Shown: in pieces, positions 14,080 through 29,508 of the stretch | Layout: each line of letters opens with the position of its first letter | Numbering within the stretch: the stretch's first letter is position 1 | Assembly (NCBI RefSeq): GCF_013122565.1 | Contig: NZ_CP053258.1 | Strand: one strand, 5' to 3' | DNA length: 64,000 nucleotides | Source of the DNA: Escherichia coli | Lineage (GTDB): Bacteria > Pseudomonadota > Gammaproteobacteria > Enterobacterales > Enterobacteriaceae | Position numbers and translations under genes: made by a program | The notes under the pieces: generated by a model | What the model saw: the letters and a program-made list of their open reading frames with translations, nothing else | The model's database searches: none | What the model was told of the DNA's origin: nothing

Positions 14080-14190
<111 letters not shown>

Positions 14191-14226
14191 TGCGCCTGAA
14201 AGACACCCGCAGGTGCCTTAGCGGCA

Positions 14227-15630
14227 TTACTTCGCCATGCGTTTTTTACCAATAAACAACCAGCCCAGCCCCAACGCGATAAACCACAGCGGGGTGACCA
14301 GCAGCGCCTGGCGGGTATCATCTTCCAGCGTCAGCAGCACGATCACAAACACAAAGAACGCCATGCATACCCAGCACATCAGCTTGCCGAGCGGCATCTT
14401 GTAGATCGACTTCTCATGCAGATGAGGACGCTGTTTGCGATACACCAGGTACGAGCAAAGGATAATCGTCCAGACGAACATAAACAGAATCGCGGAAACG
14501 GTTGTAATCATCGTGAACGCGCCAATCACGCTAGGATTCACATACAACATCACCACGCCGCCGAGCAGACAGATACACGAGAAGGTCAATCCTTTCGCGG
14601 GTACTGCGCGCTTAGAAAGTTTAGCGAACGCTTTCGGCGCAACACCTTCCTGCGCCAGACCAAACAGCATACGGCTGGTAGAGAAGACACCGCTGTTAGC
14701 GGAAGACGCCGCAGAGGTCAGCACCACAAAGTTGATCACGCTGGCAGCCGCAGGCAAACCTACCAACACAAACAGTTCAACAAACGGGCTTTTCTCCGGG
14801 ACTACCGAACTCCACGGCGTCACGGACATAATCACAATCAGCGCGAAGACGTAGAACATAATGATACGGATCGGAATGGAGTTAATCGCGCGTGGCAGTG
14901 ATTTCTCTGGATCTTTGGTTTCCGCAGCTGTTGTACCTACCAGCTCAATCCCCACGAAAGCGAAAACCGCTATCTGGAATCCGGCAAAGAAGCCACTTAA
15001 ACCTTTCGGGAACCAGCCGCCGTCATTCCACAAATGCGCGAATGACGCTTCCACACCAGTCGGTGACTGAAAGTGCATCGCCACCATGACCAGGCCGACG
15101 ACAATCAGCGACACAATGGCGACGATTTTGATCATCGCAAACCAGAACTCCATCTCACCGAACATTTTCACGGTGGCGAGGTTAAGCGTCAGCAGCAGCA
15201 CTATCACCGCCAGCGAGGCGACCCAGTCGGAGAGATCGGGGAACCAGAACTGAGCATAAGCCGTGATCGCCACCACGTCTGCCATACCGGTTACAACCCA
15301 GCAGAACCAGTAAGTCCAGCCGGTGAAATATCCTGCCCACGGCCCGAGTAAATCGGAAGCGAAGTCACTAAAAGATTTGTATTCCAGATTCGAAAGCAGC
15401 AATTCCCCCATTGCCCGCATCACGAAAAAGAGCATAAAACCAATGATCATATAAACGAAAATGATCGACGGCCCGGCAAGGCTAATCGTTTTGCCAGACC
15501 CCATAAACAACCCCGTACCAATGGCACCGCCAATGGCAATAAGCTGAATATGTCGGTTTGTGAGATTGCGCCGTAGCGACTGTTCAGCCGGAGCCTGATC
15601 ATCGGCAACGACTTTTACCTGATCTACCAT
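14227..15630 (-). CDS. cycA: D-serine/D-alanine/glycine transporter CycA (APC family)
   Basis: 467 aa ORF MVDQVKVVADDQAPAEQSLRRNLTNRHIQLIAIGGAIGTGLFMGSGK... Confidence 0.93.
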   Translation of the reverse strand: MVDQVKVVADDQAPAEQSLRRNLTNRHIQLIAIGGAIGTGLFMGSGKTISLAGPSIIFVYMIIGFMLFFVMRAMGELLLSNLEYKSFSDFASDLLGPWAGYFTGWTYWFCWVVTGMADVVAITAYAQFWFPDLSDWVASLAVIVLLLTLNLATVKMFGEMEFWFAMIKIVAIVSLIVVGLVMVAMHFQSPTGVEASFAHLWNDGGWFPKGLSGFFAGFQIAVFAFVGIELVGTTAAETKDPEKSLPRAINSIPIRIIMFYVFALIVIMSVTPWSSVVPEKSPFVELFVLVGLPAAASVINFVVLTSAASSANSGVFSTSRMLFGLAQEGVAPKAFAKLSKRAVPAKGLTFSCICLLGGVVMLYVNPSVIGAFTMITTVSAILFMFVWTIILCSYLVYRKQRPHLHEKSIYKMPLGKLMCWVCMAFFVFVIVLLTLEDDTRQALLVTPLWFIALGLGWLFIGKKRMAK

Positions 15631-15938
15631 GTTTTTTTCTTCCTGTACCTGTCTGTGTTGTTCAGGCTCTACGGCCTTTAGTCAGTCTATGATACGACGA
15701 ATCTGTATCGGGACTCATCGATATTAGGTAACAATACGCGGGATGAATACTAAGATTTAGATCTAATGTTAATTTTATGTTTAAAGTGAGTGTCATATCA
15801 CGGTGATAACGCGAAACAGCTCACAAAAATACACGCTTACGGGGTCTTTGCAACACAAAATAGCGCCGTTTGGCAAACTGAAGGGTTTATTGCTGAATGC
15901 CTGCTCCCCTCTGGTTCGAGGGGAACAGAATGCGCTGC

Positions 15939-16559
15939 TTAGAGGATTTCCAGCAGTTCGACTTCAAACACCAGGGTGCTGAACGGAGGGATGGATGCGC
16001 CTGCACCGCGCTCGCCATATGCCAGTTCCTGCGGGATAGTCAGTTCCCATTTAGAACCTACCGGCATCAGAGTCAGTGCTTCAATCCAGCCAGGGATCAC
16101 GCCATTAACCGGAAATTCAGCGGGTTCACCACGAGCAACGGAGCTGTCAAACACGGTGCCGTCGATCAGTTTACCGGTGTAATGAACACGAACGCGGTCG
16201 GTACGTGCCGGAATTGCGCCTTCACCCTGGTTGATCACGCGGAATTGCAGGCCAGATTCGGTGCTATTCACACCTTCTTTTTTGGCGTTTTCTTCCAGGT
16301 ATTTCACACCTTCAGCAGCCATCGCCTGGAAACGCTGACGACGAACGGCATCGGCGCGCTCGTGGATTTCACGCAGCGCGCGATGCACCACATCAACCGG
16401 AACAGCCGGATGTTTGCCTTCCAGCGCATCGGCAATACCTGCAACCAGTGCTTCTGGCAGCAGCCCTTCCAGGCCAGATTCACTCAGTTGTTGCCCTACC
16501 TGCAAACCAATGCCGTAGCTTGCTTGCGCTTCGATGGTGTCAAAAGTTGGGGTGGTCAT
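15939..16559 (-). CDS. fklB: FKBP-type peptidyl-prolyl cis-trans isomerase FklB
   Basis: 206 aa from [25 protein letters not shown]; FKBP C-terminal domain. Confidence 0.92.
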
Positions 16560-16777
16560 CGTATTTCCTTTCTTAGGGTATAAAAGTAGCGGGCAGCATA
16601 TCAGCCACACTTCTTTGGGTAAAACTTTGTCGCAGGAATGATGACAAATCCCGGGGAAAAAGAAACAATAGCAATATCCCGTATGAATATAATAAAGGCG
16701 GGTTTACCACGGACATCATAGCGTTAGCTTATTCATAGGCTATGATTGAGGAACAAGACGCGGAGCAGGAGGAAACC

Positions 16778-17416
16778 ATGCCCGGGCGCTTTGAACTAAA
16801 ACCAACCCTGGAGAAAGTCTGGCACGCGCCGGACAATTTTCGCTTCATGGACCCGCTGCCGCCGATGCATCGTCGGGGGATCATTATTGCCGCCATTGTA
16901 TTGGTGGTCGGATTTCTGCTTCCATCTGATGATACGCCCAACGCGCCGGTGGTGACGCGTGAAGCGCAGTTAGATATTCAGTCGCAATCACAACCGCCGA
17001 CAGAAGAACAGCTGCGGGCGCAATTAGTCACACCACAAAATGATCCTGATCAGGTGGCTCCGGTCGCTCCAGAACCTATACAGGAAGGCCAGCCAGAAGA
17101 ACAGCCGCAAACTACCCAAACGCAACCATTCCAGCCAGATAGCGGAATTGATAATCAATGGCGCTCTTACCGTGTCGAACCCGGTAAAACGATGGCGCAG
17201 CTGTTCCGCGACCACGGACTGCCCGCTACCGATGTCTATGCAATGGCGCAGGTAGAAGGCGCGGGTAAGCCGCTGAGTAATTTGCAAAACGGGCAGATGG
17301 TGAAAATCCGCCAGAACGCCAGCGGCGTGGTGACGGGCTTAACCATTGATACGGGGAATAATCAACAGGTCCTGTTTACCCGTCAGCCGGATGGCAGTTT
17401 TATTCGCGCGCGGTAG
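16778..17416 (+). CDS. ytfB: Cell-division-associated OapA/LysM-domain protein YtfB
   Basis: 212 aa from MPGRFELKPTLEKVW (GGAGCAGGAGG RBS); proline/glutamine-rich linker; synteny after fklB. Confidence 0.88.
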   Translation: MPGRFELKPTLEKVWHAPDNFRFMDPLPPMHRRGIIIAAIVLVVGFLLPSDDTPNAPVVTREAQLDIQSQSQPPTEEQLRAQLVTPQNDPDQVAPVAPEPIQEGQPEEQPQTTQTQPFQPDSGIDNQWRSYRVEPGKTMAQLFRDHGLPATDVYAMAQVEGAGKPLSNLQNGQMVKIRQNASGVVTGLTIDTGNNQQVLFTRQPDGSFIRAR

Positions 17417-17428
17417 ATGAATCAACAT

Positions 17429-18064
17429 TCACATGCATGGGGTCACAAGGAGCCAGCTTAAAAGCGTCTCCTTGATAACCTTATGTCTGTTCTCCAAAGC
17501 CTCAGGAGATATCATACTGATGTGATAAACCAACCCTAAAGTATGTTGGTTAAGAATATAATATCCAGCAAGAGCGGCAAGGCTAATGTTTACCTGTAAT
17601 GGATCTATATCTTGCTTAAAGATATTTTGTTTTTTTCCTTCATCAAGCAACCTTTCCATAATCTCTAAATGCGAGTGGTTAATTTCGGGCAAACGAGTTG
17701 ATTTCTTGTAGTGCTCCCCTCGACTTTGGTTTTCGGAATGAATTATCTTTAAAAACCAAGGATTCTTCACATAATAATCCCACGTAAAATCAATAAATTT
17801 TTCAATGGATTGCAATGGGTTTAGTCCAGTAAAGTCCAGATCTCTTTCTTTTTGCCGGATGTCATTACACGTATATTCAAGGACTTCAATAAACAAATTC
17901 TCTTTATTACCAAAATGATGATAAACAGTCTGCTTACTACAACCGGCTGCTTTAACAATATTATCGACCCTGGCACCTTCATAGCCATACTCTGCAAATT
18001 CATTGATAGCGCACAGTAATAATTTTTCTTTCAAAATTTGCACTTTACTAGTATCAAAATACAT
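17429..18064 (-). CDS. TetR/AcrR-family transcriptional regulator
   Basis: N-terminal TetR HTH ([28 protein letters not shown]); AT-rich; start placed at ATG 18064 with GAGGG RBS (track ORF begins at GTG 18070). Confidence 0.85.
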
Positions 18065-18430
18065 CTTCACCCCTCACACTAATCTTGCCAACCTATTATA
18101 TACTCTTTTACCGCGTGACCACGCACATTTTTCATACAAAAATCATCATTATCTTACAGAGCATTAAACCTACTTACATTGTTTCGTTACTGTGAAACAG
18201 ACAGAAAATTTTTCCTTGATGCATATTTGTTAAAAATGGAATATGGCTTTAATTAATTATATTCATATAATGAATATTTAACTATAAATAATTAATTCCA
18301 TTTATTTTCAAAGAGTTATAATTTTAAATATGATCTCCCTCACGAATCAACCAACTAGATGGTTGGTTCAAATAAAATCTATAGGCATCTTTGTCTCCAT
18401 GATGAATCCTGTATTTAAAGAGGTCCAAAA

Positions 18431-19222
18431 ATGAAATCAAAAAAACCCGTTGCTATTATTACCGGTGCTGCCCGTGGTATCGGTAAAGGTTGTGCTATTG
18501 AACTAGCTCGCGCTGGATTTAATCTTCTAATAAATGATCGACCAGATAAAGACAGCATCGAAAAACTTAAAGCAACTCAAAAACTATGTATCGCTGAAGG
18601 TGTTGAAGTCATAACGTTTCCAGCCAACATTGGCGATTTAACGTTACATGAAAAGATGCTCGACGCGGCGCAAAATCAGTGGGAGCGTTTGGACTGCCTG
18701 CTCAATAACGCCGGAATTTCGGTGAAAAAGCGTGGTGATATTCTCGACCTGGAGCCAGACAGTTTCGACGATAACATTGCCATCAATACCCGCGCACCTT
18801 TCTTCCTCGCCCAGGCTTTCAGCAAGCGCCTGTTGGCGCAACCCAAACCAGAAGCTGAACTACCGCATCGCTCAATTATTTTTGTCAGCTCAATTAACGC
18901 CATCATGCTGGCGATGAATCGAGGTGAGTACACCATTGCCAAAACAGCTGTATCTGCCGCTGCCCGCCTGTTTGCCGCACGTCTTTGTGAAGAGCAAATT
19001 GGCGTTTATGAAATCCGCCCAGGTTTAATCAAAACCGATATGACTATTCCAGCAACAGCTTATTACGACGAACTGATCGCTAAGGGGTTAGTGCCATGGG
19101 GTCGTTGGGGTTTTCCACAGGACATCGCCTCCACTGTCCGTGCAATGGCGGAAGGCAAACTGATTTACACCTGTGGTCAGGCGGTCGCCATCGACGGCGG
19201 CTTAAGTATGCCACGCTTCTGA
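18431..19222 (+). CDS. Short-chain dehydrogenase/reductase (SDR) family oxidoreductase
   Basis: TGAARGIGKG nucleotide-binding motif, NNAG, catalytic Y-x3-K (YTIAK). Confidence 0.88.
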   Translation: MKSKKPVAIITGAARGIGKGCAIELARAGFNLLINDRPDKDSIEKLKATQKLCIAEGVEVITFPANIGDLTLHEKMLDAAQNQWERLDCLLNNAGISVKKRGDILDLEPDSFDDNIAINTRAPFFLAQAFSKRLLAQPKPEAELPHRSIIFVSSINAIMLAMNRGEYTIAKTAVSAAARLFAARLCEEQIGVYEIRPGLIKTDMTIPATAYYDELIAKGLVPWGRWGFPQDIASTVRAMAEGKLIYTCGQAVAIDGGLSMPRF

Positions 19223-19231
19223 GGCTGAACC

Positions 19232-20074
19232 ATGAGAGATCTGTTACATCGCCCGGATTTATTCAGCATCAATACCGCGACGCTGGGCTATAAAATGCCT
19301 CTGCCCGCCCTTATTGATGCTTGTGCCGCACGCGGCATCGGTGCGATTGCCCCCTGGCGCAGAGAGTTGCAGAGCGAAGATCTTCAGCAAATCGTCCGCC
19401 AGCTTGCCGCCAATAACATGAGCGTTTCTGGTTTATGCCGTAGCACCTACTACACCGCGCCGACGCTGGCAGAGCGCAAGCTGGCGATTGATGATAACCG
19501 CCGGGCGCTGGACGACGCAGCGATGCTGAACGCCGCCTGTTATATGCAGGTGGTTGGCGGTCTGCCAACGGGCACTAAAGATCTGTATGAAGCGCGGGAG
19601 CAAGTGAAAGAAGGGGTTCGCCAGTTGCTGTCACATTCGAAAGATGTCGGCGTGCCGATTGCACTGGAGCCACTGCACCCGATGACTGCTGCCGATCGCT
19701 CTTGCCTCTGCTCGCTACGTCAGGCGCTGGACTGGTGTGATGAACTCGATCCCGATGGTGAGTTTGGCCTCGGCGTGGCGGTCGATGTCTACCACGTCTG
19801 GTGGGATCCGGATCTCACCAGTCAGATCCTGCGCGCTGGAAAACGGATCCTCGCGTTTCATGTTTCCGACTGGCTGGTGCCGACGACCGATCTGGTCAAT
19901 GATCGGGGAATGCCGGGAGATGGCGTCATCAATATTCCGTCAATTCGTCGGCTGGTTGAAAACGCCGGATTTAATGGTTCTATCGAATTAGAAATATTTT
20001 CTTCATTCTGGTGGGAAAAGAATATCAACCAAATACTGGATAAAAGTATTAACGGACTTTCTTATTATTGTTAA
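19232..20074 (+). CDS. Sugar phosphate isomerase/epimerase-like TIM-barrel protein (xylose isomerase-like fold)
   Basis: 280 aa; family assignment by overall pattern only; 9 bp after SDR stop. Confidence 0.6.
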   Translation: MRDLLHRPDLFSINTATLGYKMPLPALIDACAARGIGAIAPWRRELQSEDLQQIVRQLAANNMSVSGLCRSTYYTAPTLAERKLAIDDNRRALDDAAMLNAACYMQVVGGLPTGTKDLYEAREQVKEGVRQLLSHSKDVGVPIALEPLHPMTAADRSCLCSLRQALDWCDELDPDGEFGLGVAVDVYHVWWDPDLTSQILRAGKRILAFHVSDWLVPTTDLVNDRGMPGDGVINIPSIRRLVENAGFNGSIELEIFSSFWWEKNINQILDKSINGLSYYC

Positions 20075-20223
20075 ACATCACACTATATTTTTCTCTCGAA
20101 ATTAGTTGATTGTTTAAATTTGCATGTTTTAGAAAGTTATGAGTGAAGTAATAAATCAATAAATTAAATATCTTACAGAGCATTGCGAGTGTTAGGTATT
20201 TATAATCAAATAGGGATTGGCAT

Positions 20224-21765
20224 ATGAGCAAGATTAATACTGCAGAAATACTGGTCGCAGGTATTAAAGATGGCGCAACAATCGCCATTAGCGGTAATGG
20301 CGGTGGAATGGTTGAAGCCGATCATCTACTACAAGCTCTGGAAACACGGTTTCTGGAAACCGGGCATCCATGTAACCTTACGCTTATACACTCATTAGGT
20401 GTAGGAGACCGTGAACACAAAGGCAGTAACCGTTTTGCTCATAAAGGAATGTTAAAGCGTGTTATTGCAGGACATTTCACATGGTCACCAAGAATGCAGG
20501 CTCTGGTTAAGAATAATGAGGTCGAGGCTTATTGCTTTCCTAGCGGAGTTATTCAGACATTATTACGTGAAATAGGCGCTGGACGTCCAGGACTGTTCAC
20601 CCATGTCGGGGTAGGAACTTTTATTGATCCGCGTAATGGAGGAGGGAAATCTAATTCACGAACGACAGAGGATCTGGTAGAGCTAATTGAAATTGATGGA
20701 GAAACAAAGCTACGCTATCGCCCATTTAAAGTTGATTACGCAATTGTGCGCGGTACTTATGCGGATTCACGCGGTAATATTAGCCTGGAAGAAGAAGCCG
20801 TCGATCTGGATTGCAATTCTATAGCTCTAGCTGCCCATAATAGCGGTGGTAAAGTCTTTGTGCAGGTACGTGACATTCTTGAAACAGGTGCGATTGAACC
20901 CAGACGAGTAAAAATACCCGGAATCTTAGTCGATGGCGTCGTGGAATATAGAGATCAACAACAAACATATCTTGGTGGTTACGATCTTACTATCAGCGGC
21001 CAGCATCGTCGTCTTTGTTCTCAAAACTCTATTGAACTGGTTTCAAACCCAATACGTCGATTAATTGCACGCCGTGCAGCACGCGAGTTAGTTGCTGGCG
21101 CATCCACAAACTTTGGCTTTGGCATGCCAGGAGGGATCCCAGGTATTGCTCTGCGTGAAGGAGTCCCTTTTGATACCCTTTGGCTCAGCGTGGAACAAGG
21201 TGTGCATAATGGCATGATGCTGGATGATGCTCTGTTTGGCTGTGCTCGCAATGCTGATGCGATAATTCCTTCTCTTGAGCAGTTTGATTTTTATAGTGGT
21301 GGTGGTGCCGATATAACTTTTCTCGGTATGGGGGAAATGGATCAGTATGGAAACGTGAATGTTTCCCATCTCAACAATAACCTTATCGGACCAGGCGGTT
21401 TTATCGAAATTGCACAGAATGCCCATAAAGTGGTGTTCTGCGGCACGTTTGATGCCAAGGGTAGCAAAATAAACGTCACAAATGCGGGCCTGGAAATCAT
21501 TCAATCCGGCCAGGTAGCAAAACTTGTTTCACAAGTAGAAGAGATAACTTTCAGCGGAGAATATGCGCAACAACGTAAACAGGATGTGTTGTACATTACC
21601 GAGCGCGCTGTATTCCAGTTAACGCCACAGGGTGTGGAACTAATTGAGGTTGCCCCTGGCGTGGACATTGACCACGACATTCTGCCGTATATGGCCTTCC
21701 GTCCAATTATCAAGCACCCACGCCTGATGGAAAGTAGTCTGTTTACGCCGATGGAGGATGCATGA
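20224..21765 (+). CDS. Acyl-CoA:acetate/3-ketoacid CoA-transferase, fused alpha-beta (YdiF-like, family I)
   Basis: 513 aa; clear colinear similarity to E. coli YdiF as recalled (GHFTWSPR, GVGTFIDPRNGGGK, FDFYSGGGADITFLGMGEMDQYGNVNVS, ITERAVF). Confidence 0.85.
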   Translation: MSKINTAEILVAGIKDGATIAISGNGGGMVEADHLLQALETRFLETGHPCNLTLIHSLGVGDREHKGSNRFAHKGMLKRVIAGHFTWSPRMQALVKNNEVEAYCFPSGVIQTLLREIGAGRPGLFTHVGVGTFIDPRNGGGKSNSRTTEDLVELIEIDGETKLRYRPFKVDYAIVRGTYADSRGNISLEEEAVDLDCNSIALAAHNSGGKVFVQVRDILETGAIEPRRVKIPGILVDGVVEYRDQQQTYLGGYDLTISGQHRRLCSQNSIELVSNPIRRLIARRAARELVAGASTNFGFGMPGGIPGIALREGVPFDTLWLSVEQGVHNGMMLDDALFGCARNADAIIPSLEQFDFYSGGGADITFLGMGEMDQYGNVNVSHLNNNLIGPGGFIEIAQNAHKVVFCGTFDAKGSKINVTNAGLEIIQSGQVAKLVSQVEEITFSGEYAQQRKQDVLYITERAVFQLTPQGVELIEVAPGVDIDHDILPYMAFRPIIKHPRLMESSLFTPMEDA

Positions 21766-23834
21766 GTCAGCTTGATGACACCATCCTTGATGCGCTGACA
21801 CACGTCACTTTCCCAAAGGGGTTTGTGTCAGCAGAGCCAACACCAATTGTCACCGTTGAGGATGTTGATTACCCGATCTGGCACGTTGATGCGCTGGTCG
21901 TTGGTAGCGGCGCAGCAGGATTACGTGCGGCAGTTGAACTTAAACGCCGCCAGCAAAATGTGCTGATCGCTACCGCCGGGTTATATATGGGGACGTCGGC
22001 ATGTTCTGGTTCCGATAAACAGACACTGTTTACCGCCGCTACCGCGGGCAACGGCGACAACTTCACCAAACTGGCAGAGGCACTGGCGAGCGGTGGGGCG
22101 ATGGATCACGACACCGCTTATGTCGAAGCGGTAGGTTCTCTGCACACTCTAGGCGGGTTGCAATATCTTGGTCTGGAATTACCGGAAGATCGCTATGGCG
22201 CGATTCTTCGTTATCAAACCGACCATGACGAAGCTGGGCGTGCAACCTCGTGTGGGCCGCGTACCTCAAGGTTAATGGTGAAAGTGCTGTTGGAAGAAGT
22301 ACAGCGCCTCGCCATTCCAGTGTTGACCAGTGCAACAGTGATTAAACTGCTGCATCAGCGTGACGAAAACGGCGAAGACCGCGTGGCAGGGGCAATCCTC
22401 GCGACCGGTCATCGCGCCCATAACCCATGGGGGCTGGCAATTGTGACTGCGCCCAATGTGGTACTGGCAACGGGCGGACCGGGCGAGCTTTATCGCGACA
22501 GTGTTTATCCACATAAATGCTTCGGCTCGCTGGGGCTGGCGCTGGAGGAAGGTCTGACGCTAACCAATCTGACCGAAAGCCAGTTTGGTATAGGCACACC
22601 GCGCAGCACGTTTCCGTGGAATTTGTCCGGCACCTATGTGCAGGTGATCCCGTATATCTATTCCGTGGATGCTGAGGGTAACGAGTATAACTTCCTCGCG
22701 GATTACTATCGCACCACCCAAGAGCTGGCTTCAAACATCTTCCGTAAAGGCTATCAGTGGCCGTTCCACGCCACGCGGGTAATGGATTTTGGCTCCAGCT
22801 TGTTAGATATGGCGGTGGCGCAAGAACAGCAACATGGTCGTCTGGTGTTTATGGATTTCAATCGTAATCCTGAAGCGGTGCCTGGTGATCTACCCTTCTC
22901 ATTAGATCGACTGGACGACGACGTTCGCGCGTATCTGGAAAATAACGACGCTCTGGCACCATCGCCCATCGAACGGCTGCAACGAATGAATCCGCTGTCT
23001 ATCTCGCTGTATAAGATGCACGGTTACGATCTCACCACGCAGCCATTGCAGTTTGCCATGAATAATCAGCACATGAATGGCGGCATTGAAGTGGATATCT
23101 GGGGACAAACATCCCTGCCCGGTTGTTTTGCAGTGGGAGAAGTAGCCGGTACTCACGGCGTTACCCGACCTGGCGGCGCGGCGCTGAATGCCGGACAGGT
23201 TTTTGCCGTGCGTCTGGCGCGCTTTATTGGTTGCACACAAAAGCGGTCTGTTGAGGAGGATGTCGCGCAGCTGGTAGCCTCATCTCTGCATATAGTCAGA
23301 GAAGTTATCGCTCAGGCACTGGCAAACGAGAACGGAATGGCGCTGGTAACGGTGAAAGAAAAAATCCAGGCGCGAATGTCTGATTACGCTGGATTTATTT
23401 GTCATGCCGATAAAGTTCGTCACGCCACCCGTGACGCCCTGCTGTTAAGTGAGTTTGTACAACAACACGGTTTGACCATCAAACATGTTGGCGAAATTGC
23501 CGAACTATTTATGTGGCGGCATATGGCACTGACTTCTGCCGCCATATTGACACAATTGACGCATTATATTGACGCAGGTGGCGGCAGTCGTGGGGCGCGG
23601 ATAATTATTGATCACTATGGGGAAGGTCTACCACAAACTCGACAGGGTGCAAAAGAAAAATGGCGTTTTAGATTGGAGTCTGAAAATGAAAGAGAATCAC
23701 GAGCAACGATTCAGCTTAACAATGGAGAATTTATAATAAATAAAAACAAGATACGTCAAATAATCAATTTCAAAAATAATTATTTTGAAAAAAATTGGCC
23801 GGAGTTTCTCCTTGGAGAAATCTATATAAAATAA
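21762..23834 (+). CDS. FAD-dependent oxidoreductase (fumarate reductase/succinate dehydrogenase flavoprotein-like), with unusual AT-rich C-terminal extension
   Basis: N-terminal dinucleotide-binding motif VVGSGAAGLRAA; 690 aa; ATGA start/stop overlap with upstream CoA-transferase. Confidence 0.8.
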   Translation: MSQLDDTILDALTHVTFPKGFVSAEPTPIVTVEDVDYPIWHVDALVVGSGAAGLRAAVELKRRQQNVLIATAGLYMGTSACSGSDKQTLFTAATAGNGDNFTKLAEALASGGAMDHDTAYVEAVGSLHTLGGLQYLGLELPEDRYGAILRYQTDHDEAGRATSCGPRTSRLMVKVLLEEVQRLAIPVLTSATVIKLLHQRDENGEDRVAGAILATGHRAHNPWGLAIVTAPNVVLATGGPGELYRDSVYPHKCFGSLGLALEEGLTLTNLTESQFGIGTPRSTFPWNLSGTYVQVIPYIYSVDAEGNEYNFLADYYRTTQELASNIFRKGYQWPFHATRVMDFGSSLLDMAVAQEQQHGRLVFMDFNRNPEAVPGDLPFSLDRLDDDVRAYLENNDALAPSPIERLQRMNPLSISLYKMHGYDLTTQPLQFAMNNQHMNGGIEVDIWGQTSLPGCFAVGEVAGTHGVTRPGGAALNAGQVFAVRLARFIGCTQKRSVEEDVAQLVASSLHIVREVIAQALANENGMALVTVKEKIQARMSDYAGFICHADKVRHATRDALLLSEFVQQHGLTIKHVGEIAELFMWRHMALTSAAILTQLTHYIDAGGGSRGARIIIDHYGEGLPQTRQGAKEKWRFRLESENERESRATIQLNNGEFIINKNKIRQIINFKNNYFEKNWPEFLLGEIYIK

Positions 23835-23937
23835 ACGCCTTTTAAATCGGTAGCTATTAAATAAATATTTTATGATTTGCAAAATTCACGCTTTTACATT
23901 GTGAGTATTTTCTATTGATAATATCAAAGGTTTAATC

Positions 23938-25218
23938 ATGAAAAAAATCAAGCACTATAGGTGGCATATTATCGTCTTAATATGTTTCATCACTGTAATT
24001 AATTATTTGGACAGAACAGCATTAGGCGTGGCCGCGCCCACAATAATGCAAACGATGGGGATAACTAAAGAGCAATATTCATGGGTTGTCAGTGCATTCC
24101 AGTTAGCATATACAATTGGACAACCTGTAATGGGATTCTTTATTGACCTTATCGGTCTGAAATTTAGCTTTTTCATTTGCATTATAATCTGGGGACTTGC
24201 CACTATGGGGCACGCATTAGCGGGATCCTGGCAAGGTTTGGCCTTTATGCGTGGCCTGATGGGAGTAAGTGAAGCCTCCGTCTTTCCCGCAGGGATAAAG
24301 ACTGTATCGACGTGGTTTCCTGCTAAAGAACGCGGTATTGCTGCGGGATTCTTCAACACGGGTACATCTCTTGGTGCCATGCTTGCTCCACCGCTTATTG
24401 CCTGGTGCATAATGTTCCATAGTTGGCAATTCGCATTTCTGGTTTCTGGCTGTCTGGCATTATTTGCGGCAGTGATGTGGTTTATCTTTTATAAAGACCC
24501 CAAAGATGCCAAAGGACTTTCTGAAGAGGAAAGACACTATATAGAGTCTGGGCAAGAAAAACATCTTGATTCTAATAAAAGTAAAAAAGCAACCATTCTT
24601 CATGTTATTAAAAAACGCAATTTCTGGGGTATTGGCATTACCCGTTTCCTGGCAGAACCAGCTTGGGGAACAATCAACTTTTGGGTACCTATATTTTTCG
24701 TTGAAACATTGCATTTCAGCTTAAAAGATATAGCAATGTTTATCTGGCTCCCGTTTTTATTAGGTGACTTGGGTTGTTTATCTAGTGGTTTTATCGCTAA
24801 GTTTTTTCACGATCGCGGGGTTAGCCTTCTTAATGCACGAAGAATTACATTTACATTCGCTGCAACAACGATGATGTCGATTGGTTTGGTTAGCATCGTC
24901 ACTAATCCGTACATTGCTGTATTACTAATTAGTATCGGTGCATTCTCACATCAATGCCTATCTACTGTTGTTGCCACTATGGGGGCCGATCTTTTTGAAA
25001 AAGAAGAAGTCGCAACAGTAGTTGGATTATCGGGAGGGTGTGGATATACAGGGCAACTGATATTTAATATATTCATTGGTGTATTCGTTGCTGCAATTGG
25101 CTTCTCGACATTCTTTGTGATACTTGCCTTCCTGGATATTATTGGTGCCATTATTTTATGGTCTGTAATTAGACCACCGAAACTTGTTGAACAAACAAAT
25201 TTAGTAACACAATCGTAG
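23938..25218 (+). CDS. MFS transporter, anion:cation symporter (ACS)-like, probable organic-acid permease
   Basis: 426 aa, 12-TM pattern, N-terminal YLDRTALGVAAP motif. Confidence 0.85.
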   Translation: MKKIKHYRWHIIVLICFITVINYLDRTALGVAAPTIMQTMGITKEQYSWVVSAFQLAYTIGQPVMGFFIDLIGLKFSFFICIIIWGLATMGHALAGSWQGLAFMRGLMGVSEASVFPAGIKTVSTWFPAKERGIAAGFFNTGTSLGAMLAPPLIAWCIMFHSWQFAFLVSGCLALFAAVMWFIFYKDPKDAKGLSEEERHYIESGQEKHLDSNKSKKATILHVIKKRNFWGIGITRFLAEPAWGTINFWVPIFFVETLHFSLKDIAMFIWLPFLLGDLGCLSSGFIAKFFHDRGVSLLNARRITFTFAATTMMSIGLVSIVTNPYIAVLLISIGAFSHQCLSTVVATMGADLFEKEEVATVVGLSGGCGYTGQLIFNIFIGVFVAAIGFSTFFVILAFLDIIGAIILWSVIRPPKLVEQTNLVTQS

Positions 25219-25269
25219 TTTTTATTTTTACCTATAGAATTTTAATCGAAAAAAAATAAAGGAAAGATT

Positions 25270-25749
25270 ATGTCTCAAACAGAAATTATTCTTCCTTCAG
25301 GAAGAGAACTTACTCCAGGTGAATATGGTTATGCCAATCTGGAACCTGGCGATCACTACCAGACTCCCGGTCTTAACGTAACAGAGTCACAGATTGTTGC
25401 TTTTGCGGGGATAAGCGGTGATTTTTTCGATGTTCATATGGATGATGAATTTGCAAGGGAAAAAGGATTTCCAGGACGCATTGCCCACGGTCTGTTAGGT
25501 TTAGCATTGACGGACGGCCTGAAGAATCGTTCTATTGTACGTTTACGTGCAGTTGCTACATTAAACTGGAACTGGTCATTCTGTGCACCATTATTGCCTG
25601 GAGATCATATTCACGCCGTTATTACTGTTGTTAAAAAACGCCCCACCAAACGTGAAGACCGAGGCATTGTGACTTTTGCTTTACAATTGTTTAATCAACA
25701 TGGAAAGATAATACAGCGAGGCGAAACTCTGCTGATGATGATGCAATAA
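25270..25749 (+). CDS. MaoC-like (hot-dog fold) dehydratase / enoyl-CoA hydratase
   Basis: 159 aa; GRIAHGLLGLALTDGL hot-dog motif; AGGAAA RBS. Confidence 0.8.
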   Translation: MSQTEIILPSGRELTPGEYGYANLEPGDHYQTPGLNVTESQIVAFAGISGDFFDVHMDDEFAREKGFPGRIAHGLLGLALTDGLKNRSIVRLRAVATLNWNWSFCAPLLPGDHIHAVITVVKKRPTKREDRGIVTFALQLFNQHGKIIQRGETLLMMMQ

Positions 25750-25760
25750 TCTGAGTTTGA

Positions 25761-25797
25761 AATACGTACCAACGAGTATGCTGGTACGTATTTCTTC
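25761..25797. terminator. Intrinsic terminator between convergent catabolic operon and HipA-like gene
   Basis: 10-bp perfect stem aatacgtacc/ggtacgtatt, 12-nt loop, followed by tttcttc. Confidence 0.65.
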
Positions 25798-25868
25798 GCA
25801 AACGCACTGTTTATGCTCTCTCCCTCATAATGACTGTTTCATCTAACTAATATTTCTAAATAACTGTC

Positions 25869-27137
25869 CTAAATTGACGACCTGAATGCCTCTGCCATTA
25901 ACTCTTGCTCACGATCAGGTAATCTAAGACGCTCGGCAATAGTTTGCCACTGACTGACAATCCCTCTAAAATTAGCAATAATGTCATCAGCTTCCGTCAA
26001 ACTAAGTCGAAAATACTCTGCAACTTCTCTAGCTAATTCCAAATCAAGTGCATTATCATTTTCCGTAATATTAAGCTTTAAACCGTCAGATCTGGAAACA
26101 GGATTCAAATCATATGCTTCAGAAAGCCGCCAACCTTTTCCCGGTATCAAGATATATCCATGATTACGTAAATGATCATCGGTATTAGAAACAAGAATAT
26201 TAAAAACAATTCTGGACCAGAGTTCTTTAAGGTCAGTATTGGTCTGCGCTCCGTGCCTGATAAGAACATCTGCTAATTCCAGATAACTTACACCTGTAGA
26301 GGCATCTTCACCATCCTGATGTCTGGTTAGTGTCATAGCCGAAGCAAAATGCAGACGCCTTCCCGCATTAGTGCGGTCAAAACGACGAACCATAAAACAA
26401 TGGTAATTGCTGGCAAATTTATGCGCCTGAGCAGGTGCAACATTCAGTCCACAGCCAACAGCAAGCGCATTAACGACCATTTCCCATCCACCAACATCAT
26501 ACTCATCTTTTGCACTGGGAAATTTAGCGATGTAAAGATGTCCGGCTTCATCAACCACACTGGCTTTTGGACGTGCACCCCCTAATGATCCCCCCGGAGC
26601 GATTAGCATTCTTAACCATTTTTGCCCCATGAGTTCTTTATTATCAGGATCTTCTTCAATTGCCCGGCTAGCCCTTTCCAGACTCGCTATTTCGGTAAAT
26701 GGTGGGGCTGCAACATTAATGCGGTTATCAAGAAACTCTCCAGCGTCTTCACGTTTGTATCGAAGAGCCCCAACCCGATAAAGATCATGAACACCTAATA
26801 GATAGTCAGACTCATAAAGGTGGGAGTCTTTATCAAATAACCCATCTCGAATATCCCTCTCAAAACGACGCTTCATTAGCATACGCCCCCAACGATCCGG
26901 GCAGGAATCACTAAACGCACCAAATTTATCCTTTGGAGGAATTGGGTACTGTGCTCCCTCATACAACATTATTTCAGGATCTAACTGAATGAAATTAAGT
27001 GCACGATCTGCAAGCGCCTTTTTATCGTACTCAAACTCAAATATCTCACGCGCCCGAGTGCGACGACTGTGTAAATAACCAATACGCGCAGGACCATCCA
27101 GGCCTTCCCAATCCGCATACACTCCGATTAATGCCAT
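25869..27137 (-). CDS. HipA-family serine/threonine kinase (type II toxin-like)
   Basis: 422 aa; P-loop-like GGSLGGARPK and catalytic NTDDHLRNHG motifs in HipA order; AAGGA RBS. Confidence 0.8.
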   Translation of the reverse strand: MALIGVYADWEGLDGPARIGYLHSRRTRAREIFEFEYDKKALADRALNFIQLDPEIMLYEGAQYPIPPKDKFGAFSDSCPDRWGRMLMKRRFERDIRDGLFDKDSHLYESDYLLGVHDLYRVGALRYKREDAGEFLDNRINVAAPPFTEIASLERASRAIEEDPDNKELMGQKWLRMLIAPGGSLGGARPKASVVDEAGHLYIAKFPSAKDEYDVGGWEMVVNALAVGCGLNVAPAQAHKFASNYHCFMVRRFDRTNAGRRLHFASAMTLTRHQDGEDASTGVSYLELADVLIRHGAQTNTDLKELWSRIVFNILVSNTDDHLRNHGYILIPGKGWRLSEAYDLNPVSRSDGLKLNITENDNALDLELAREVAEYFRLSLTEADDIIANFRGIVSQWQTIAERLRLPDREQELMAEAFRSSI

Positions 27138-27150
27138 AATTAATTTCCTT

Positions 27151-27642
27151 TTATCGGTTTTTTATCGGTTTTTTTATCGGTTGTAATAGTGCAGCAAGAG
27201 AGGTTGACGTTTCCCCTGGAATAGTTGGCGTTGAGTCTTTTGCCAGTGCTGTTAAATCCGTGGTGAGATGACCTTCTTTCTCGCGTTTCGTCTGAAATGA
27301 GGCTGTCTGAATCCCTTCTTCATTCTTAACTGATGAACGAGAAAGCCCTCTTTTTTTAATCAAACGGGAATCCTGGAGCTGATGCCCTAAGGCGTCTTCA
27401 GCTGCAAGCTTATTTAAATCCGTTTCCAGGCCCAAAACCTGCATCACAGACAAATATGCCCCTATCGTGACCCCTGCACTTCCTGCCTCCAGAGAACGCA
27501 ATGTGATTGGCGACATCCCTGCACGCTCAGCAACTTGCTTTGCGGTTAGCTTACGTCGTAAACGAGCAAGTTTCAGACGCTCACCAAATTCACTAAGCAT
27601 CTGATTCGTATAAGGGAGTAACGGTGCTGTTTTTTTACCCAT
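27151..27642 (-). CDS. XRE-family HTH protein (HipB-like putative antitoxin) with long low-complexity C-terminal tail
   Basis: 163 aa; HTH ~residues 16-75 ([23 protein letters not shown]); 13 bp upstream of kinase gene on same strand. Confidence 0.75.
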
Positions 27643-27682: not shown

Positions 27683-28000
27683 ATATTAGCATTTATTAGA
27701 TTGAACGCACCTGCAAAGCGTTCAGAATTATGGAAGAGATAATATCTTATCTTTTTATATATAAAAACAATAAAATAACAGCACATTAATATATAACTTA
27801 TTGTTTTTATTATCTTACAAGGGAGACACTCGCTGTATTGATGCTTTTGTCGTGTTTTATGTGTAAAAAACATGACACGAACTACCAGCGGCGAGACTGG
27901 GGGCTGGGGGCCTGGTATGGGTACTGCGAACTTTTTATAAAAGGAATAGCAAGAGATTTATGGAGGGAACGTCTATTTCTGCGGTTTTTATCACTTAAAA

Positions 28001-28030
28001 GCAAAACGCCGACCAATGGTCGGCGTTTTT
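28001..28030. terminator. Intrinsic terminator downstream of rplI (rpsF operon)
   Basis: Stem aacgccgacc/ggtcggcgtt with 4-nt loop, flanked by A-run and T-run (bidirectional capable). Confidence 0.8.
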
Positions 28031-28050
28031 ACGTCTCGTTGAATAACGAA

Positions 28051-28512
<462 letters not shown>

Positions 28513-28541
28513 TCAAAGTCGTATTAATGGACCGTGACCGA

Positions 28542-29088
<547 letters not shown>

Positions 29089-29094
29089 CAGAAA

Positions 29095-29508
<414 letters not shown>

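What the first reader, a model, noticed from the sequence alone, without database searches (positions are those of the whole stretch)
17417..25800. AT-rich accessory island: TetR-regulated six-gene acyl-CoA-type catabolic operon of unknown substrate
Between ytfB and rplI (where I recall K-12 carrying yjfZ/ytfA) lies a visibly AT-rich block: a divergent TetR regulator, then SDR dehydrogenase, xylose-isomerase-like TIM-barrel protein, YdiF-like fused CoA-transferase, FAD-dependent flavoprotein, ACS-type MFS anion permease and MaoC hot-dog hydratase. Genes are tightly packed (9-bp gap, ATGA overlap). The combination suggests uptake of an organic acid, CoA activation, then beta-oxidation-like dehydrogenation/hydration/oxidation, but the substrate is not inferable and I know of no characterised E. 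coli pathway with this composition.
Basis: partly seen in the sequence, partly recalled or inferred. Interest (0 to 1): 0.7.

Follow-up and report, generated by a model that had tools for sequence, protein, structure and literature searches.

The report
Uncharacterised TetR-controlled organic-acid operon, rare variant
This is an intact copy, in a rare gene arrangement, of an uncharacterised nutrient-breakdown operon that over half of E. coli strains, plus Klebsiella and Salmonella, carry at the same chromosomal spot; its substrate is still unknown, and its central flavoprotein belongs to a family with no studied member.

Summary
The genes are there as described: a divergent TetR regulator, then SDR, xylose-isomerase-like TIM barrel, YdiF-type CoA-transferase, SdhA/NadB-like flavoprotein, ACS-type MFS permease and MaoC hydratase. 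The 9-bp gap and the ATGA overlap are both real. All seven genes are intact and under strong purifying selection.

It is not a strain-specific island.
- A homologous operon sits between ytfB and rplI in 3125 of 5426 complete E. coli genomes, including Nissle 1917.
- It also sits there in E. albertii, Klebsiella oxytoca and Salmonella.
- K-12 keeps only a deletion scar: the ytfA pseudogene is the C-terminal part of the TetR gene.

The window carries a rare, old haplotype. The usual crotonase gene is absent, with no remnant, and an unrelated MaoC hydratase gene follows the permease. Only 1 of 5426 complete genomes shares this arrangement.

The SDR, TIM-barrel and flavoprotein genes recur together across phyla. 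Their usual neighbours are sugar-acid genes (KDG kinase, KDPG aldolase, Gfo/Idh/MocA and OYE oxidoreductases), usually without CoA enzymes. This weakens a plain beta-oxidation reading.

I infer an inducible catabolic route for an anionic hydroxy- or sugar-type acid with a CoA-dependent hydration branch. A conserved palindrome and a CRP-like box mark its control region. I found no paper or database entry that names the pathway.

The parts
17429..18064 (-). TetR/AcrR-family regulator. It is the intact ortholog of the K-12 ytfA pseudogene and is transcribed divergently from the operon.
   Evidence: ORF (the ATG at 18064 matches the 211-aa RefSeq model of EC23HZZ201). TetR-family hits. PF00440 and PF17938 on orthologs. 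K-12 ytfA equals residues 83-216 of the common allele. dN/dS 0.04.
18329..18344 (.). CRP-like box TATGA-N6-TCACG, 8 of 10 matches to TGTGA-N6-TCACA. Inferred catabolite-control site.
   Evidence: The position is conserved in the alignment of promoter regions. The box is perfect in Brenneria (TGTGATGTTAATCACA) and near-perfect in Salmonella, Klebsiella and Nissle. Binding was not tested.
18346..18367 (.). Conserved palindrome ATCAACC-N8-GGTTGGT. Candidate TetR operator, about 65 bp upstream of the SDR start codon.
   Evidence: It is the only strongly conserved block in otherwise diverged intergenic DNA. Exact pattern matches occur in 7 related loci. It is unique in the window, with 0 of 100 shuffles matching at up to 3 mismatches.
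18431..19222 (+). Short-chain dehydrogenase/reductase of the NCBIfam PRK12745 family.
   Evidence: 403 bits against a cut-off of 250; next best hits are glucose 1-dehydrogenase, FabG and KduD models. TGxxxGIG and YxxxK motifs read. A homolog lies within 10 kb of the flavoprotein gene in 32 of 80 genome loci.
19232..20074 (+). Xylose-isomerase-like TIM-barrel protein, a putative metal-dependent isomerase, epimerase or dehydratase. It starts 9 bp after the SDR gene.
   Evidence: PF01261, E 3e-37. PDB 3ju2/3qc0 (structural-genomics entries with no assigned function) E 4e-83; 7vpf E 6e-60. Only weak hits to FrlC, IolO and Hyi models. Gap read.
20075..20223 (.). AT-rich 149-bp spacer at the place where the common operon type has a 777-bp crotonase gene.
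   Evidence: Sequence. No remnant of the crotonase gene. Architectures compared.
20224..21765 (+). Fused family-I CoA-transferase of the YdiF / propionate-CoA-transferase type.
   Evidence: PDB 2ahu (YdiF) E 2e-119. The glutamate of its VETG segment (which I recall, not tested here, as the catalytic Glu333) aligns with E of VEQG here, and GTGGF aligns with GPGGF. FadX, PcaI and PcaJ models hit.
21762..23834 (+). 690-aa soluble flavoprotein of the SdhA/FrdA/NadB superfamily with a divergent capping domain. Its start overlaps the CoA-transferase stop (ATGA).
   Evidence: PF00890. Foldseek to FrdA/SdhA gives TM 0.66-0.78 at 15-18% identity on a model with pLDDT 86.6. The profile aligns to NadB in the FAD and C-terminal domains only; the His of QHxNGG and the Arg of RPGG are conserved. 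The family has 413 representatives at E<1e-30, and every one listed in AFDB carries only a generic name. Overlap read.
23938..25218 (+). MFS permease of the anion:cation symporter type (D-galactonate transporter subfamily).
   Evidence: TIGR00893 at 320 bits, below its cut-off of 395. This is the least conserved gene of the operon: 77% identity to Nissle and 50% to Klebsiella/Salmonella. A promoter-like site lies at 23893-23922.
25270..25749 (+). MaoC-type (hot-dog fold) enoyl-CoA hydratase/dehydratase. It is specific to this haplotype.
   Evidence: Hits to the PaaZ C-terminal domain, RipB/Ich and HadB models. PDB hits to PaaZ and (R)-specific enoyl-CoA hydratases. PF01575 on orthologs. The GDFFDVH Asp/His motif is read. 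Its DNA is found in only 1 of 5426 complete E. coli genomes, plus one unrelated locus. dN/dS 0.02.
25759..25794 (+). Perfect 13-bp inverted repeat followed by TTC. Likely end of the transcription unit.
   Evidence: Repeat I15; sequence. The consensus terminator scan did not call it because the stem is not GC-rich.

Best explanation
This is a functional, inducible catabolic operon for an anionic hydroxy-carboxylic (sugar-acid-like) compound that has not yet been identified. It sits at an old enterobacterial locus between ytfB and rplI.

Proposed working (inferred except where marked as shown):
1. The divergent TetR protein represses the operon by binding the conserved palindrome just upstream of the first gene. 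An adjacent CRP-like box adds catabolite control.
2. The MFS permease imports the acid.
3. A conserved three-enzyme core remodels the carbon skeleton. The SDR oxidises a secondary alcohol. The metal-dependent TIM-barrel enzyme isomerises or dehydrates the keto intermediate. The SdhA/NadB-like flavoprotein adds or removes a C=C (or C=N) bond next to a carboxylate.
4. An Enterobacteriaceae-specific branch takes over. The YdiF-type transferase makes the CoA thioester from acetyl-CoA, and an enoyl-CoA hydratase hydrates or dehydrates it. Housekeeping enzymes would finish the job.

Shown here: the hydratase in this window is a MaoC protein. The common E. coli, Klebsiella and Salmonella form uses a crotonase instead, encoded at a different position in the operon. 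The window therefore carries a rare, old alternative haplotype in which one hydratase family has replaced the other.
For: Genes are real and constrained.
- All seven ORFs are full length relative to their orthologs.
- dN/dS is 0.02-0.15 at dS 0.36-0.71.

The locus is old and at the same site.
- It occurs in 3125 of 5426 complete E. coli genomes.
- It lies at the same site in E. albertii, K. oxytoca and Salmonella.
- K-12 ytfA is the scar.

Regulation.
- The palindrome and the CRP-like box are the only conserved blocks in the promoter region across genera.

Catalytic competence.
- The glutamate of the YdiF VETG segment and the GxGGF motif align in the CoA-transferase.
- MaoC has the Asp/His motif.
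- The crotonase of the common form has both catalytic Glu residues.
- The flavoprotein keeps the NadB/FRD His and Arg.

Hydration of a CoA ester is an essential step.
- Two unrelated hydratase families alternate in an otherwise orthologous operon, and neither leaves a remnant of the other.
- CoA-transferase, MaoC and the flavoprotein also cluster in a Desulfobacterales genome (L068).

The core triad has a sugar-acid flavour.
- SDR, TIM and flavoprotein genes are linked in Brenneria, Pseudescherichia, Phytobacter, Mangrovibacter, Lentisphaeria, Opitutae and planctomycete loci.
- Flavoprotein homologs sit next to a KdgK-like kinase, KDPG aldolase, an LgdA-like Gfo/Idh/MocA enzyme, LacI regulators, and sugar ABC, TRAP or anion-MFS transporters.

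A published pathway also feeds a C3 product of a carbohydrate-type route into a CoA-transferase, hydratase and dehydrogenase branch: the inositol-to-propionate route of Anaerostipes (PMC8355322).
Against: - No substrate, inducer or phenotype is known. Every enzymatic step is inferred from family membership.
- The order of the steps is unknown, as is whether the flavoprotein acts on the free acid or on the CoA ester. The ATGA coupling to the CoA-transferase hints at the ester.
- The flavoprotein homologs found beside KDG kinase and aldolase are only 36-56% identical and may have a different substrate.
- No electron partner for the flavoprotein (OYE, ETF, cytochrome) is encoded in the E. coli operon.
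- No thiolase or lyase is encoded, so the end products are unknown.
- The CRP box matches only 8 of 10 positions in this window.
Confidence: 0.55

Rival explanations
1. This is the first reader's scheme, a self-contained beta-oxidation-like cycle. The acid is taken up and activated by the CoA-transferase. The flavoprotein stands in for an acyl-CoA dehydrogenase and desaturates the thioester. MaoC hydrates it. The SDR oxidises the product to a 3-ketoacyl-CoA.
For: - The CoA-transferase and flavoprotein genes overlap (ATGA) in all enterobacterial copies.
- A hydratase is always present.
- The SDR is named 3-ketoacyl-ACP reductase by NCBIfam.
- CoA-type neighbourhoods occur in L017 and L068.
Against: - The SDR, TIM and flavoprotein genes occur together in many taxa with no CoA enzyme at all.
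- In L017 and L068, genuine acyl-CoA dehydrogenases (with ETF in L017) accompany the flavoprotein, so it is not their substitute there.
- No thiolase is present.
- The TIM barrel has no role in this scheme.
- From textbook stereochemistry, swapping a crotonase ((S)-product) for a MaoC enzyme ((R)-product) in front of a 91%-identical SDR is awkward unless the hydroxylated carbon is not a stereocentre.
Confidence: 0.2
2. This is a C3 route of the 3-oxopropionate / 3-hydroxypropionate / acrylate type.
1. The CoA-transferase works like a propionate CoA-transferase.
2. The SDR reduces 3-oxopropionyl-CoA (or malonate semialdehyde).
3. The hydratase interconverts 3-hydroxypropionyl-CoA and acryloyl-CoA.
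4. The FRD-like flavoprotein reduces acrylate or acryloyl-CoA.
5. The TIM barrel acts like a hydroxypyruvate-isomerase on a C3 keto acid.
For: - Hydration of acryloyl-CoA creates no stereocentre, which would explain why crotonase and MaoC are interchangeable.
- The best PDB match of the crotonase is a 3-hydroxypropionyl-CoA dehydratase.
- FAD_binding_2 enzymes include an NADH:acrylate reductase (bioRxiv 10.1101/2022.01.20.477176).
- In Anaerostipes, a propionate-CoA-transferase-type enzyme, a hydratase and a dehydrogenase process 3-oxopropionate (PMC8355322).
- L017 resembles that cluster.
- There are weak AcuR and Hyi hits.
Against: - All the specific hits are weak or generic.
- The flavoprotein lacks the OYE and FMN_bind domains of the known NADH:enoate reductases.
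- An SDR, TIM and flavoprotein triad beside KDG kinase and aldolase points to C6 acids.
- The permease is of the sugar-acid type.
Confidence: 0.12
3. The operon provides an anaerobic electron sink rather than a carbon source. The flavoprotein would be a soluble reductase of an alpha,beta-unsaturated acid, as in fumarate, urocanate, acrylate and cinnamate reductases. The other enzymes would prepare that acceptor.
For: - Homologs are fused to, or sit next to, OYE-type NADH-oxidising flavoproteins (P0150, L089, the Phycisphaerae loci and L067). This is the architecture of NADH:fumarate and NADH:acrylate reductases.
- The family is common in strict anaerobes.
Against: - The E. coli operon encodes no OYE, FMN_bind or cytochrome partner.
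- A CRP-like box and a permease are typical of carbon-source operons.
- In the profile alignment to NadB, the motif around the flavin is NadB-like and non-covalent, which is compatible with an oxidase or dehydrogenase.
Confidence: 0.08

Closest known systems
The common ytfB-rplI operon of E. coli (e.g. Nissle 1917, WP_000843394 to WP_001033605), E. albertii, K. oxytoca and Salmonella. It is annotated but uncharacterised.
   Same: - Same chromosomal site and the same divergent TetR.
- Same palindrome in the promoter region.
- Orthologous SDR, TIM barrel, CoA-transferase, flavoprotein and MFS genes, 77-91% amino-acid identity to Nissle.
- Same ATGA coupling of CoA-transferase and flavoprotein.
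   Different: - The common form has a crotonase gene between the TIM barrel and the CoA-transferase and has no MaoC gene. The window has a 149-bp spacer there and MaoC after the permease.
- The window's TetR, CoA-transferase and MFS alleles are more distant from Nissle's (81, 83 and 77%) than Nissle's TetR and CoA-transferase are from Klebsiella's (89%; the MFS is the exception, 52%).
- dS against Nissle is saturated for these three genes, whereas TIM and the flavoprotein have dS of about 0.4. The locus is therefore a mosaic.
Inositol-to-propionate branch of Anaerostipes rhamnosivorans (OxcT CoA-transferase, EcdH hydratase, AcaD dehydrogenase, acryloyl-CoA reductase/Etf; PMC8355322).
   Same: A propionate-CoA-transferase-type enzyme, an enoyl-CoA hydratase and a dehydrogenase in one operon process a small keto acid. 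That acid is produced by a carbohydrate-type pathway using Gfo/Idh/MocA and TIM-barrel enzymes.
   Different: - The E. coli operon encodes no ACAD/Etf reductase.
- That pathway has no SdhA/NadB-like flavoprotein.
- No iol genes lie next to the E. coli operon.
- Sequence relatedness to the Anaerostipes proteins was not measured here.
Soluble FAD_binding_2 reductases of unsaturated acids (K. pneumoniae NADH:fumarate reductase, Vibrio harveyi acrylate reductase ARD, urocanate and methacrylate reductases) and L-aspartate oxidase NadB.
   Same: - FAD_binding_2 domain and SdhA/FrdA fold.
- The His and Arg that align with NadB's AHYTCGG and HGANRM segments are conserved. I recall these as substrate-binding residues of NadB; that role was not tested here.
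- Relatives are fused to, or adjacent to, OYE domains, as in those reductases.
   Different: - Identity is only 15-18%.
- The capping domain, which in those enzymes carries the catalytic and specificity residues, does not align.
- The protein has no OYE or FMN_bind domain.
- It has an extra beta-rich C-terminal part of about 80 residues.
KduI/KduD plus KdgK/KdgA (5-keto-4-deoxyuronate to KDG) and the Thermotoga-type inositol route through IolO.
   Same: An SDR with KduD-like similarity is paired with an isomerase-type enzyme. In other phyla, homologs of the flavoprotein lie beside KDG kinase and KDPG aldolase.
   Different: - The TIM barrel is unrelated to the cupin KduI.
- All matches to KduD and IolO are far below the family cut-offs.
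- Those pathways contain no flavoprotein, CoA-transferase or hydratase.
Deoxyribonate acyl-CoA pathway of Klebsiella michiganensis (PMC6365646).
   Same: A sugar-derived acid is catabolised through CoA thioesters in an enterobacterium, with MFS uptake.
   Different: The gene set is different: CoA synthetase, beta-hydroxyacyl-CoA dehydrogenase, thiolase, type-different CoA-transferase, lactonase and glycerate kinase. It has no TIM barrel, flavoprotein or hydratase. I rejected it as the same system.

Membership tests
TetR/AcrR-regulated divergent operon | N-terminal TetR-type HTH domain with a ligand-binding C-terminal domain | tested here: met
   TetR-family NCBIfam hits over residues 10-190. 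PF00440 and PF17938 recorded on orthologs.
TetR/AcrR-regulated divergent operon | Palindromic operator in the divergent promoter region | tested here: met
   ATCAACC-N8-GGTTGGT (GGTTGAT in the common allele) at 18346-18367. It is conserved across Escherichia, Klebsiella and Salmonella, with a related form in Brenneria, and is unique in the window. Binding itself was not tested.
TetR/AcrR-regulated divergent operon | Derepression by a small-molecule effector related to the pathway | not testable with these tools
   Needs EMSA or a reporter assay with candidate ligands.
Family I CoA-transferase (YdiF / propionate CoA-transferase type) | Fused alpha and beta CoA_trans domains | tested here: met
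   Aligned over residues 7-508 to YdiF 2ahu, E 2e-119. PcaI- and PcaJ-type halves hit.
Family I CoA-transferase (YdiF / propionate CoA-transferase type) | Catalytic glutamate in the (S)ExG motif, and a GxGG(A/F) motif | tested here: met
   VEQG aligns with VETG of YdiF, and GPGGF aligns with GTGGF. That the VETG glutamate is the catalytic Glu333 is my recollection of the YdiF literature, not a test made here.
MaoC / hydratase-2 (R-specific enoyl-CoA hydratase) | Hot-dog MaoC dehydratase domain with the Asp-x4-His catalytic motif | tested here: met
   PaaZ-C, RipB/Ich and HadB models hit. PDB PhaJ-type hydratases hit. PF01575 on orthologs. GDFFDVH read in the translation.
MaoC / hydratase-2 (R-specific enoyl-CoA hydratase) | (R)-stereospecific hydration of 2-enoyl-CoA | not testable with these tools
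   Needs an enzyme assay.
Complex-II-type succinate dehydrogenase / fumarate reductase flavoprotein | FAD_binding_2 domain and SdhA/FrdA fold | tested here: met
   PF00890, E 1e-27. Foldseek TM 0.66/0.77 to FrdA.
Complex-II-type succinate dehydrogenase / fumarate reductase flavoprotein | Iron-sulfur and membrane-anchor partner subunits encoded alongside, and scores above the family cut-offs | tested here: not met
   No FrdB-, FrdC- or FrdD-like ORF in the operon. All SdhA, FrdA and NadB models score 25-127 bits against cut-offs of 450-1100.
Complex-II-type succinate dehydrogenase / fumarate reductase flavoprotein | Capping-domain catalytic residues (His/Arg proton shuttle) for dicarboxylates | tested here: inconclusive
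   The profile-to-NadB alignment covers only the FAD and C-terminal domains. Profile positions of about 255-395 find no counterpart. His (QHxNGG) and Arg (RPGG) of the flavin-proximal site are conserved.
Classical beta-oxidation module | ACAD-family acyl-CoA dehydrogenase, hydratase, 3-hydroxyacyl-CoA dehydrogenase and thiolase | tested here: not met
   Only a hydratase and a candidate SDR are present. No ACAD and no thiolase is encoded between ytfB and rplI.
Horizontally acquired genomic island | Mobility genes, tRNA or direct-repeat boundaries, and absence from related species at that site | tested here: not met
   No tRNA. No integrase or transposase ORF. The same operon is at the same site in Klebsiella and Salmonella. 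Composition is atypical only for TetR, CoA-transferase, MFS, MaoC and the spacers.

The most novel reading that the evidence does not exclude
The operon encodes an undescribed CoA-linked catabolic route for a host- or diet-derived acid. The route is built around a flavoprotein family (SdhA/NadB fold, new capping domain, 413 representative clusters at E<1e-30 across bacteria, with at least one archaeal member) that has no characterised member and catalyses a new reaction.

The two haplotypes at this locus in Escherichia, one with a crotonase and one with a MaoC hydratase, would then be a natural experiment. Unrelated hydratase families would be doing the same step, and that constrains the chemistry to a hydration that creates no fixed stereocentre.
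Probability: 0.4. Interest if true: 0.65.

Novelty: new variant of a known kind. Interest (0 to 1): 0.45.

Why it matters
If the inference holds, more than half of E. coli strains carry a complete, regulated pathway whose substrate nobody has named. These include the probiotic Nissle 1917 and many extraintestinal isolates, along with Klebsiella oxytoca and some Salmonella. Identifying the substrate would add a niche-defining nutrient to gut and pathogen ecology models.

It would also give a first function to a large flavoprotein family that is currently annotated only as 'FAD-binding protein'.

The crotonase/MaoC swap at one locus is a clean case of non-orthologous displacement. It can be exploited experimentally, because it makes the hydration step, and its stereochemistry, directly testable.

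For genome annotation, the result explains the K-12 ytfA pseudogene as the scar of this operon. It also shows that the ytfB-rplI interval is a recombination mosaic rather than a mobile island.

Tried and rejected
- **Literature.** Nine full-text searches found no paper describing the operon. Terms included ytfA/yjfZ, PDB codes 7VPF/3JU2/3QC0, annotation-name combinations, the Prokka-style names echA8/ydiF, and ytfB plus CoA.
- **K. michiganensis deoxyribonate acyl-CoA cluster.** I followed this up from memory and rejected it because the gene set is different.
- **UPEC DFI-seq paper mentioning ytfB.** Irrelevant.
- **Solved structures.** The TIM barrel matches only structural-genomics entries without a function. 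The flavoprotein has no close solved relative. AFDB neighbours carry only generic names.
- **Remnant searches.** There is no trace of a crotonase gene in the 149-bp spacer. There is no trace of MaoC downstream of the permease in crotonase-type loci.
- **16-bp exact repeat (18150 and 20169).** It is not conserved in the closest complete genome, so I did not interpret it.
- **Riboswitch or tRNA in the interval.** None found. There is only one sub-threshold Rfam hit, at the rplI terminator.
- **Decaying pseudogene cluster.** Rejected on dN/dS and intact gene lengths.
- **Large flavoprotein homologs as CoA-transferase fusions.** The natural distant fusion P0150 is OYE plus FAD_binding_2, not CoA-transferase plus FAD. 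Among E. coli proteins, P0023 (1078 aa) does carry both PF01144 and PF00890, and P0032 (1043 aa) has PF01144 recorded. I assume, without testing, that these are read-through of the overlapping genes.
- **Substrate.** Several candidates were considered but could not be tested or ranked: uronates and unsaturated uronates, cyclitol acids, 2- and 3-deoxyaldonates, quinate/shikimate and C3 acids.

Full report
**What is in the sequence**

Between fklB/ytfB and rplI the window encodes the following:
- on the minus strand, a TetR-family regulator (17429-18064);
- after a 366-bp AT-rich intergenic region, on the plus strand: an SDR (18431-19222), a xylose-isomerase-like TIM-barrel protein (19232-20074), a 149-bp spacer, a fused family-I CoA-transferase (20224-21765), a 690-aa flavoprotein (21762-23834), an MFS permease (23938-25218) and a MaoC hydratase (25270-25749).

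Family assignments are solid:
- The SDR scores 403 bits on NCBIfam PRK12745, against a cut-off of 250.
- The TIM barrel matches PF01261.
- The transferase matches YdiF (PDB 2ahu) at E 2e-119.
- The flavoprotein matches PF00890.
- The permease matches TIGR00893 at 320 bits, which is below that model's cut-off of 395.
- MaoC matches PaaZ-C and (R)-hydratase models and structures.

The 9-bp gap and the ATGA overlap were read directly. A perfect 13-bp hairpin follows MaoC.

Its 'visibly AT-rich' description is true only on average. GC is 0.36 for TetR, 0.41 for MFS, 0.43 for MaoC and 0.46 for the transferase, but 0.48, 0.54 and 0.51 for SDR, TIM and flavoprotein. The window as a whole is 0.494.

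**It is not a private island**

The transferase-flavoprotein DNA finds a homolog in 3125 of 5426 complete E. coli genomes at about 83-84% identity.
- In Nissle 1917 and strain GN4741 the homolog lies between ytfB and rplI.
- It lies at that site in K. oxytoca and Salmonella enterica too.
- An E. albertii contig carries the same gene order, although its flanking genes were not inspected.
ytfA encodes residues 83-216 of the common TetR allele at 97.8% identity, so it is a deletion scar.
- The interval has no tRNA, no mobility gene and no Rfam family above threshold.

The window's flanks are 96-98% identical to E. coli. The divergence starts exactly at the ytfB stop codon and ends about 50 bp before rplI, at roughly 27998.

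That variable segment also holds an independent HipA/HTH toxin-antitoxin-like module at 25869-27642. It is 95% identical to the one in Nissle. It is absent or partly deleted in other carriers of the same operon type.

**The window carries a rare alternative arrangement**

The common operon is TetR | SDR - TIM - crotonase - CoA-transferase - flavoprotein - MFS. The window lacks the crotonase gene and has MaoC after the permease.
- Only one complete genome shares this arrangement (EC23HZZ201, from a pig).
- Draft assemblies show it is a stable lineage: L090 and L091 have the identical gene order.
- Neither arrangement retains a remnant of the other's hydratase gene.

Within the MaoC type, alleles are deeply diverged (dS 0.36-0.71) but strongly constrained (dN/dS 0.02-0.15 for all seven genes).

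Against Nissle the amino-acid identities are TetR 81%, transferase 83% and MFS 77%. For TetR and the transferase this is lower than Nissle against Klebsiella (89%), and dS for all three genes is saturated. SDR, TIM and flavoprotein are 87-91% identical, with dS of about 0.4 for TIM and flavoprotein. The locus is thus a recombination mosaic of two old haplotypes. The AT-rich genes are the divergent ones.

**Regulation**

Promoter regions from Escherichia, Klebsiella, Salmonella and Brenneria share little sequence apart from two adjacent elements:
- a CRP-like TGTGA-N6-TCACA box, perfect in Brenneria and 8 of 10 in the window at 18329-18344;
- a palindrome, ATCAACC-N8-GGTTGAT, at 18346-18367 in the window.

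The palindrome pattern matches exactly in seven related loci. It is unique in the window, with no match in 100 shuffles. I read it as the TetR operator and the box as catabolite control. Both readings are inferences.

**What the enzymes suggest**

By alignment or motif the enzymes look catalytically competent.
- The glutamate of the YdiF VETG segment, which I recall as the catalytic Glu333, aligns with VEQG. The GxGGF motif also aligns.
- MaoC has the Asp-x4-His motif, GDFFDVH.
- The crotonase of the common type has both catalytic glutamates.

The flavoprotein model is confident (pLDDT 86.6) and superposes on FrdA/SdhA at TM 0.66-0.78 with 15-18% identity. A family profile aligns to NadB only in the FAD and C-terminal helical domains. 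The His of QHxNGG and the Arg of RPGG, next to the flavin, are conserved. The capping domain does not align. That domain sets substrate specificity in this superfamily, according to the ARD preprint.

There is no FrdB-, FrdC- or FrdD-like partner, and all SdhA, FrdA and NadB models score far below their cut-offs. The family is large: 413 representatives at E<1e-30. Every listed AFDB neighbour has only a generic name.

**Comparative context changes the reading**

A scan of one genome per species returned 80 loci. I called ORFs in them and clustered the products, then annotated representatives.
- The flavoprotein gene is linked to an SDR in 32 of 80 loci and to the TIM barrel in 13 of 80. These are lower bounds, because many contigs are short.
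- Brenneria has TetR | SDR - TIM - flavoprotein plus a PcaK-like permease.
- Pseudescherichia, Phytobacter, Mangrovibacter, Lentisphaeria and Opitutae have SDR - Gfo/Idh/MocA - TIM - (MFS) - flavoprotein.
- Alphaproteobacteria have a sugar ABC transporter, two GMC oxidoreductases, LacI, a levoglucosan-dehydrogenase-like Gfo/Idh/MocA enzyme, the flavoprotein and a KdgK-like kinase.
- Phycisphaerae have OYE - SDR - KDPG aldolase - flavoprotein - kinase, in some loci with GH28-like genes nearby.
- Metagenomic relatives show the same pattern.
- One protein is a natural OYE::FAD_binding_2 fusion flanked by a TIM barrel and an SDR. This is the domain logic of NADH-dependent reductases of unsaturated acids.

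A CoA-transferase accompanies the flavoprotein in only 6 of 80 loci. Two of these are Escherichia. In two others, L017 and L068, genuine acyl-CoA dehydrogenases are also present, with ETF in L017.

The conserved unit is therefore SDR + TIM + flavoprotein, acting on a carbohydrate-like acid. The CoA-transferase and hydratase are a lineage-specific addition.

**Most likely mechanism**

I commit, at about 0.55, to a TetR- and CRP-controlled catabolic operon for an imported anionic hydroxy- or sugar-type acid.
1. The core triad performs oxidation, isomerisation or dehydration, and flavin-dependent C=C (or C=N) chemistry next to a carboxylate.
2. The YdiF-type transferase and a hydratase then carry the product onward as a CoA thioester.

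The hydration step is clearly indispensable, because two unrelated hydratase families alternate in the same operon. They normally give opposite stereochemistry, yet they work alongside a 91%-identical SDR. That makes a hydration without a fixed stereocentre attractive, such as acryloyl-CoA to 3-hydroxypropionyl-CoA. It is the basis of the C3 rival (0.12). That rival has a published analogue in the Anaerostipes inositol-to-propionate branch.

The ATGA coupling and the constant hydratase favour it. Against it stand the CoA-free contexts of the triad, the co-occurring ACADs elsewhere, the missing thiolase and the unexplained TIM barrel. An electron-sink role gets about 0.08.

**Known or new**

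I found no characterised pathway with this gene set in NCBIfam, PDB, AFDB descriptions or nine literature searches. The K. michiganensis deoxyribonate CoA pathway, which I suspected at first, is a different gene set.

The operon itself is already annotated generically in thousands of genomes. The finding is therefore an uncharacterised but common operon, and the window holds its rarer variant. I rate it 'new variant of a known kind' with interest 0.45. The value lies in three things: the unassigned flavoprotein family, the breadth of carriage (Nissle, Klebsiella, Salmonella), and the natural crotonase/MaoC displacement that makes the chemistry testable.

Noticed in passing
window 25869-27137 (-) and 27151-27642 (-): An intact HipA-family toxin (422 aa) and an HTH antitoxin-like gene (163 aa) form a separate accessory module between the operon and rplI. 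It is 95% identical in DNA to the Nissle 1917 copy, where hipA is frameshifted. It is absent from L090 and partly deleted in EC23HZZ201. K-12 has yjfZ at this place, and Klebsiella and Salmonella have an EamA gene.
   Followed up: partly
window 18150-18165 and 20169-20184: An exact 16-bp direct repeat, TATCTTACAGAGCATT, occurs in the two AT-rich spacers of the operon (the TetR-SDR intergenic region and the spacer that replaces the crotonase gene). The second copy is not conserved in EC23HZZ201. Its meaning is unknown.
   Followed up: partly
L092 (K-12 MG1655 4427694-4428095, ytfA): The K-12 ytfA pseudogene encodes residues 83-216 of the common-type TetR regulator at 97.8% identity. K-12 lost the HTH part of the regulator and the whole operon in one deletion.
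   Followed up: yes
L089 10001-13255 (protein P0150): A natural fusion of an OYE (Oxidored_FMN) domain to a member of this flavoprotein family, flanked by a TIM-barrel gene and an SDR gene. It suggests an NADH-linked reductase mode for at least part of the family.
   Followed up: partly
window 1-17400 and 28000-48000: The core flanks are at best 96-98% identical to any of the 5426 complete E. coli genomes. The host is therefore a divergent E. coli-like lineage that is not closely represented among complete genomes.
   Followed up: no
window 23893-23922: A promoter-like site (TTTACA-18-GATAAT, 10 of 12 matches) lies in the 103-bp gap before the MFS gene. It could be an internal promoter for MFS and MaoC. 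The total number of such sites in the region is not above the shuffle expectation.
   Followed up: no
window 27975-28032: A sub-threshold Rfam hit (AgrB, 32 bits against a gathering score of 40) coincides with the strong terminator hairpin downstream of rplI. It is most likely just that hairpin.
   Followed up: no
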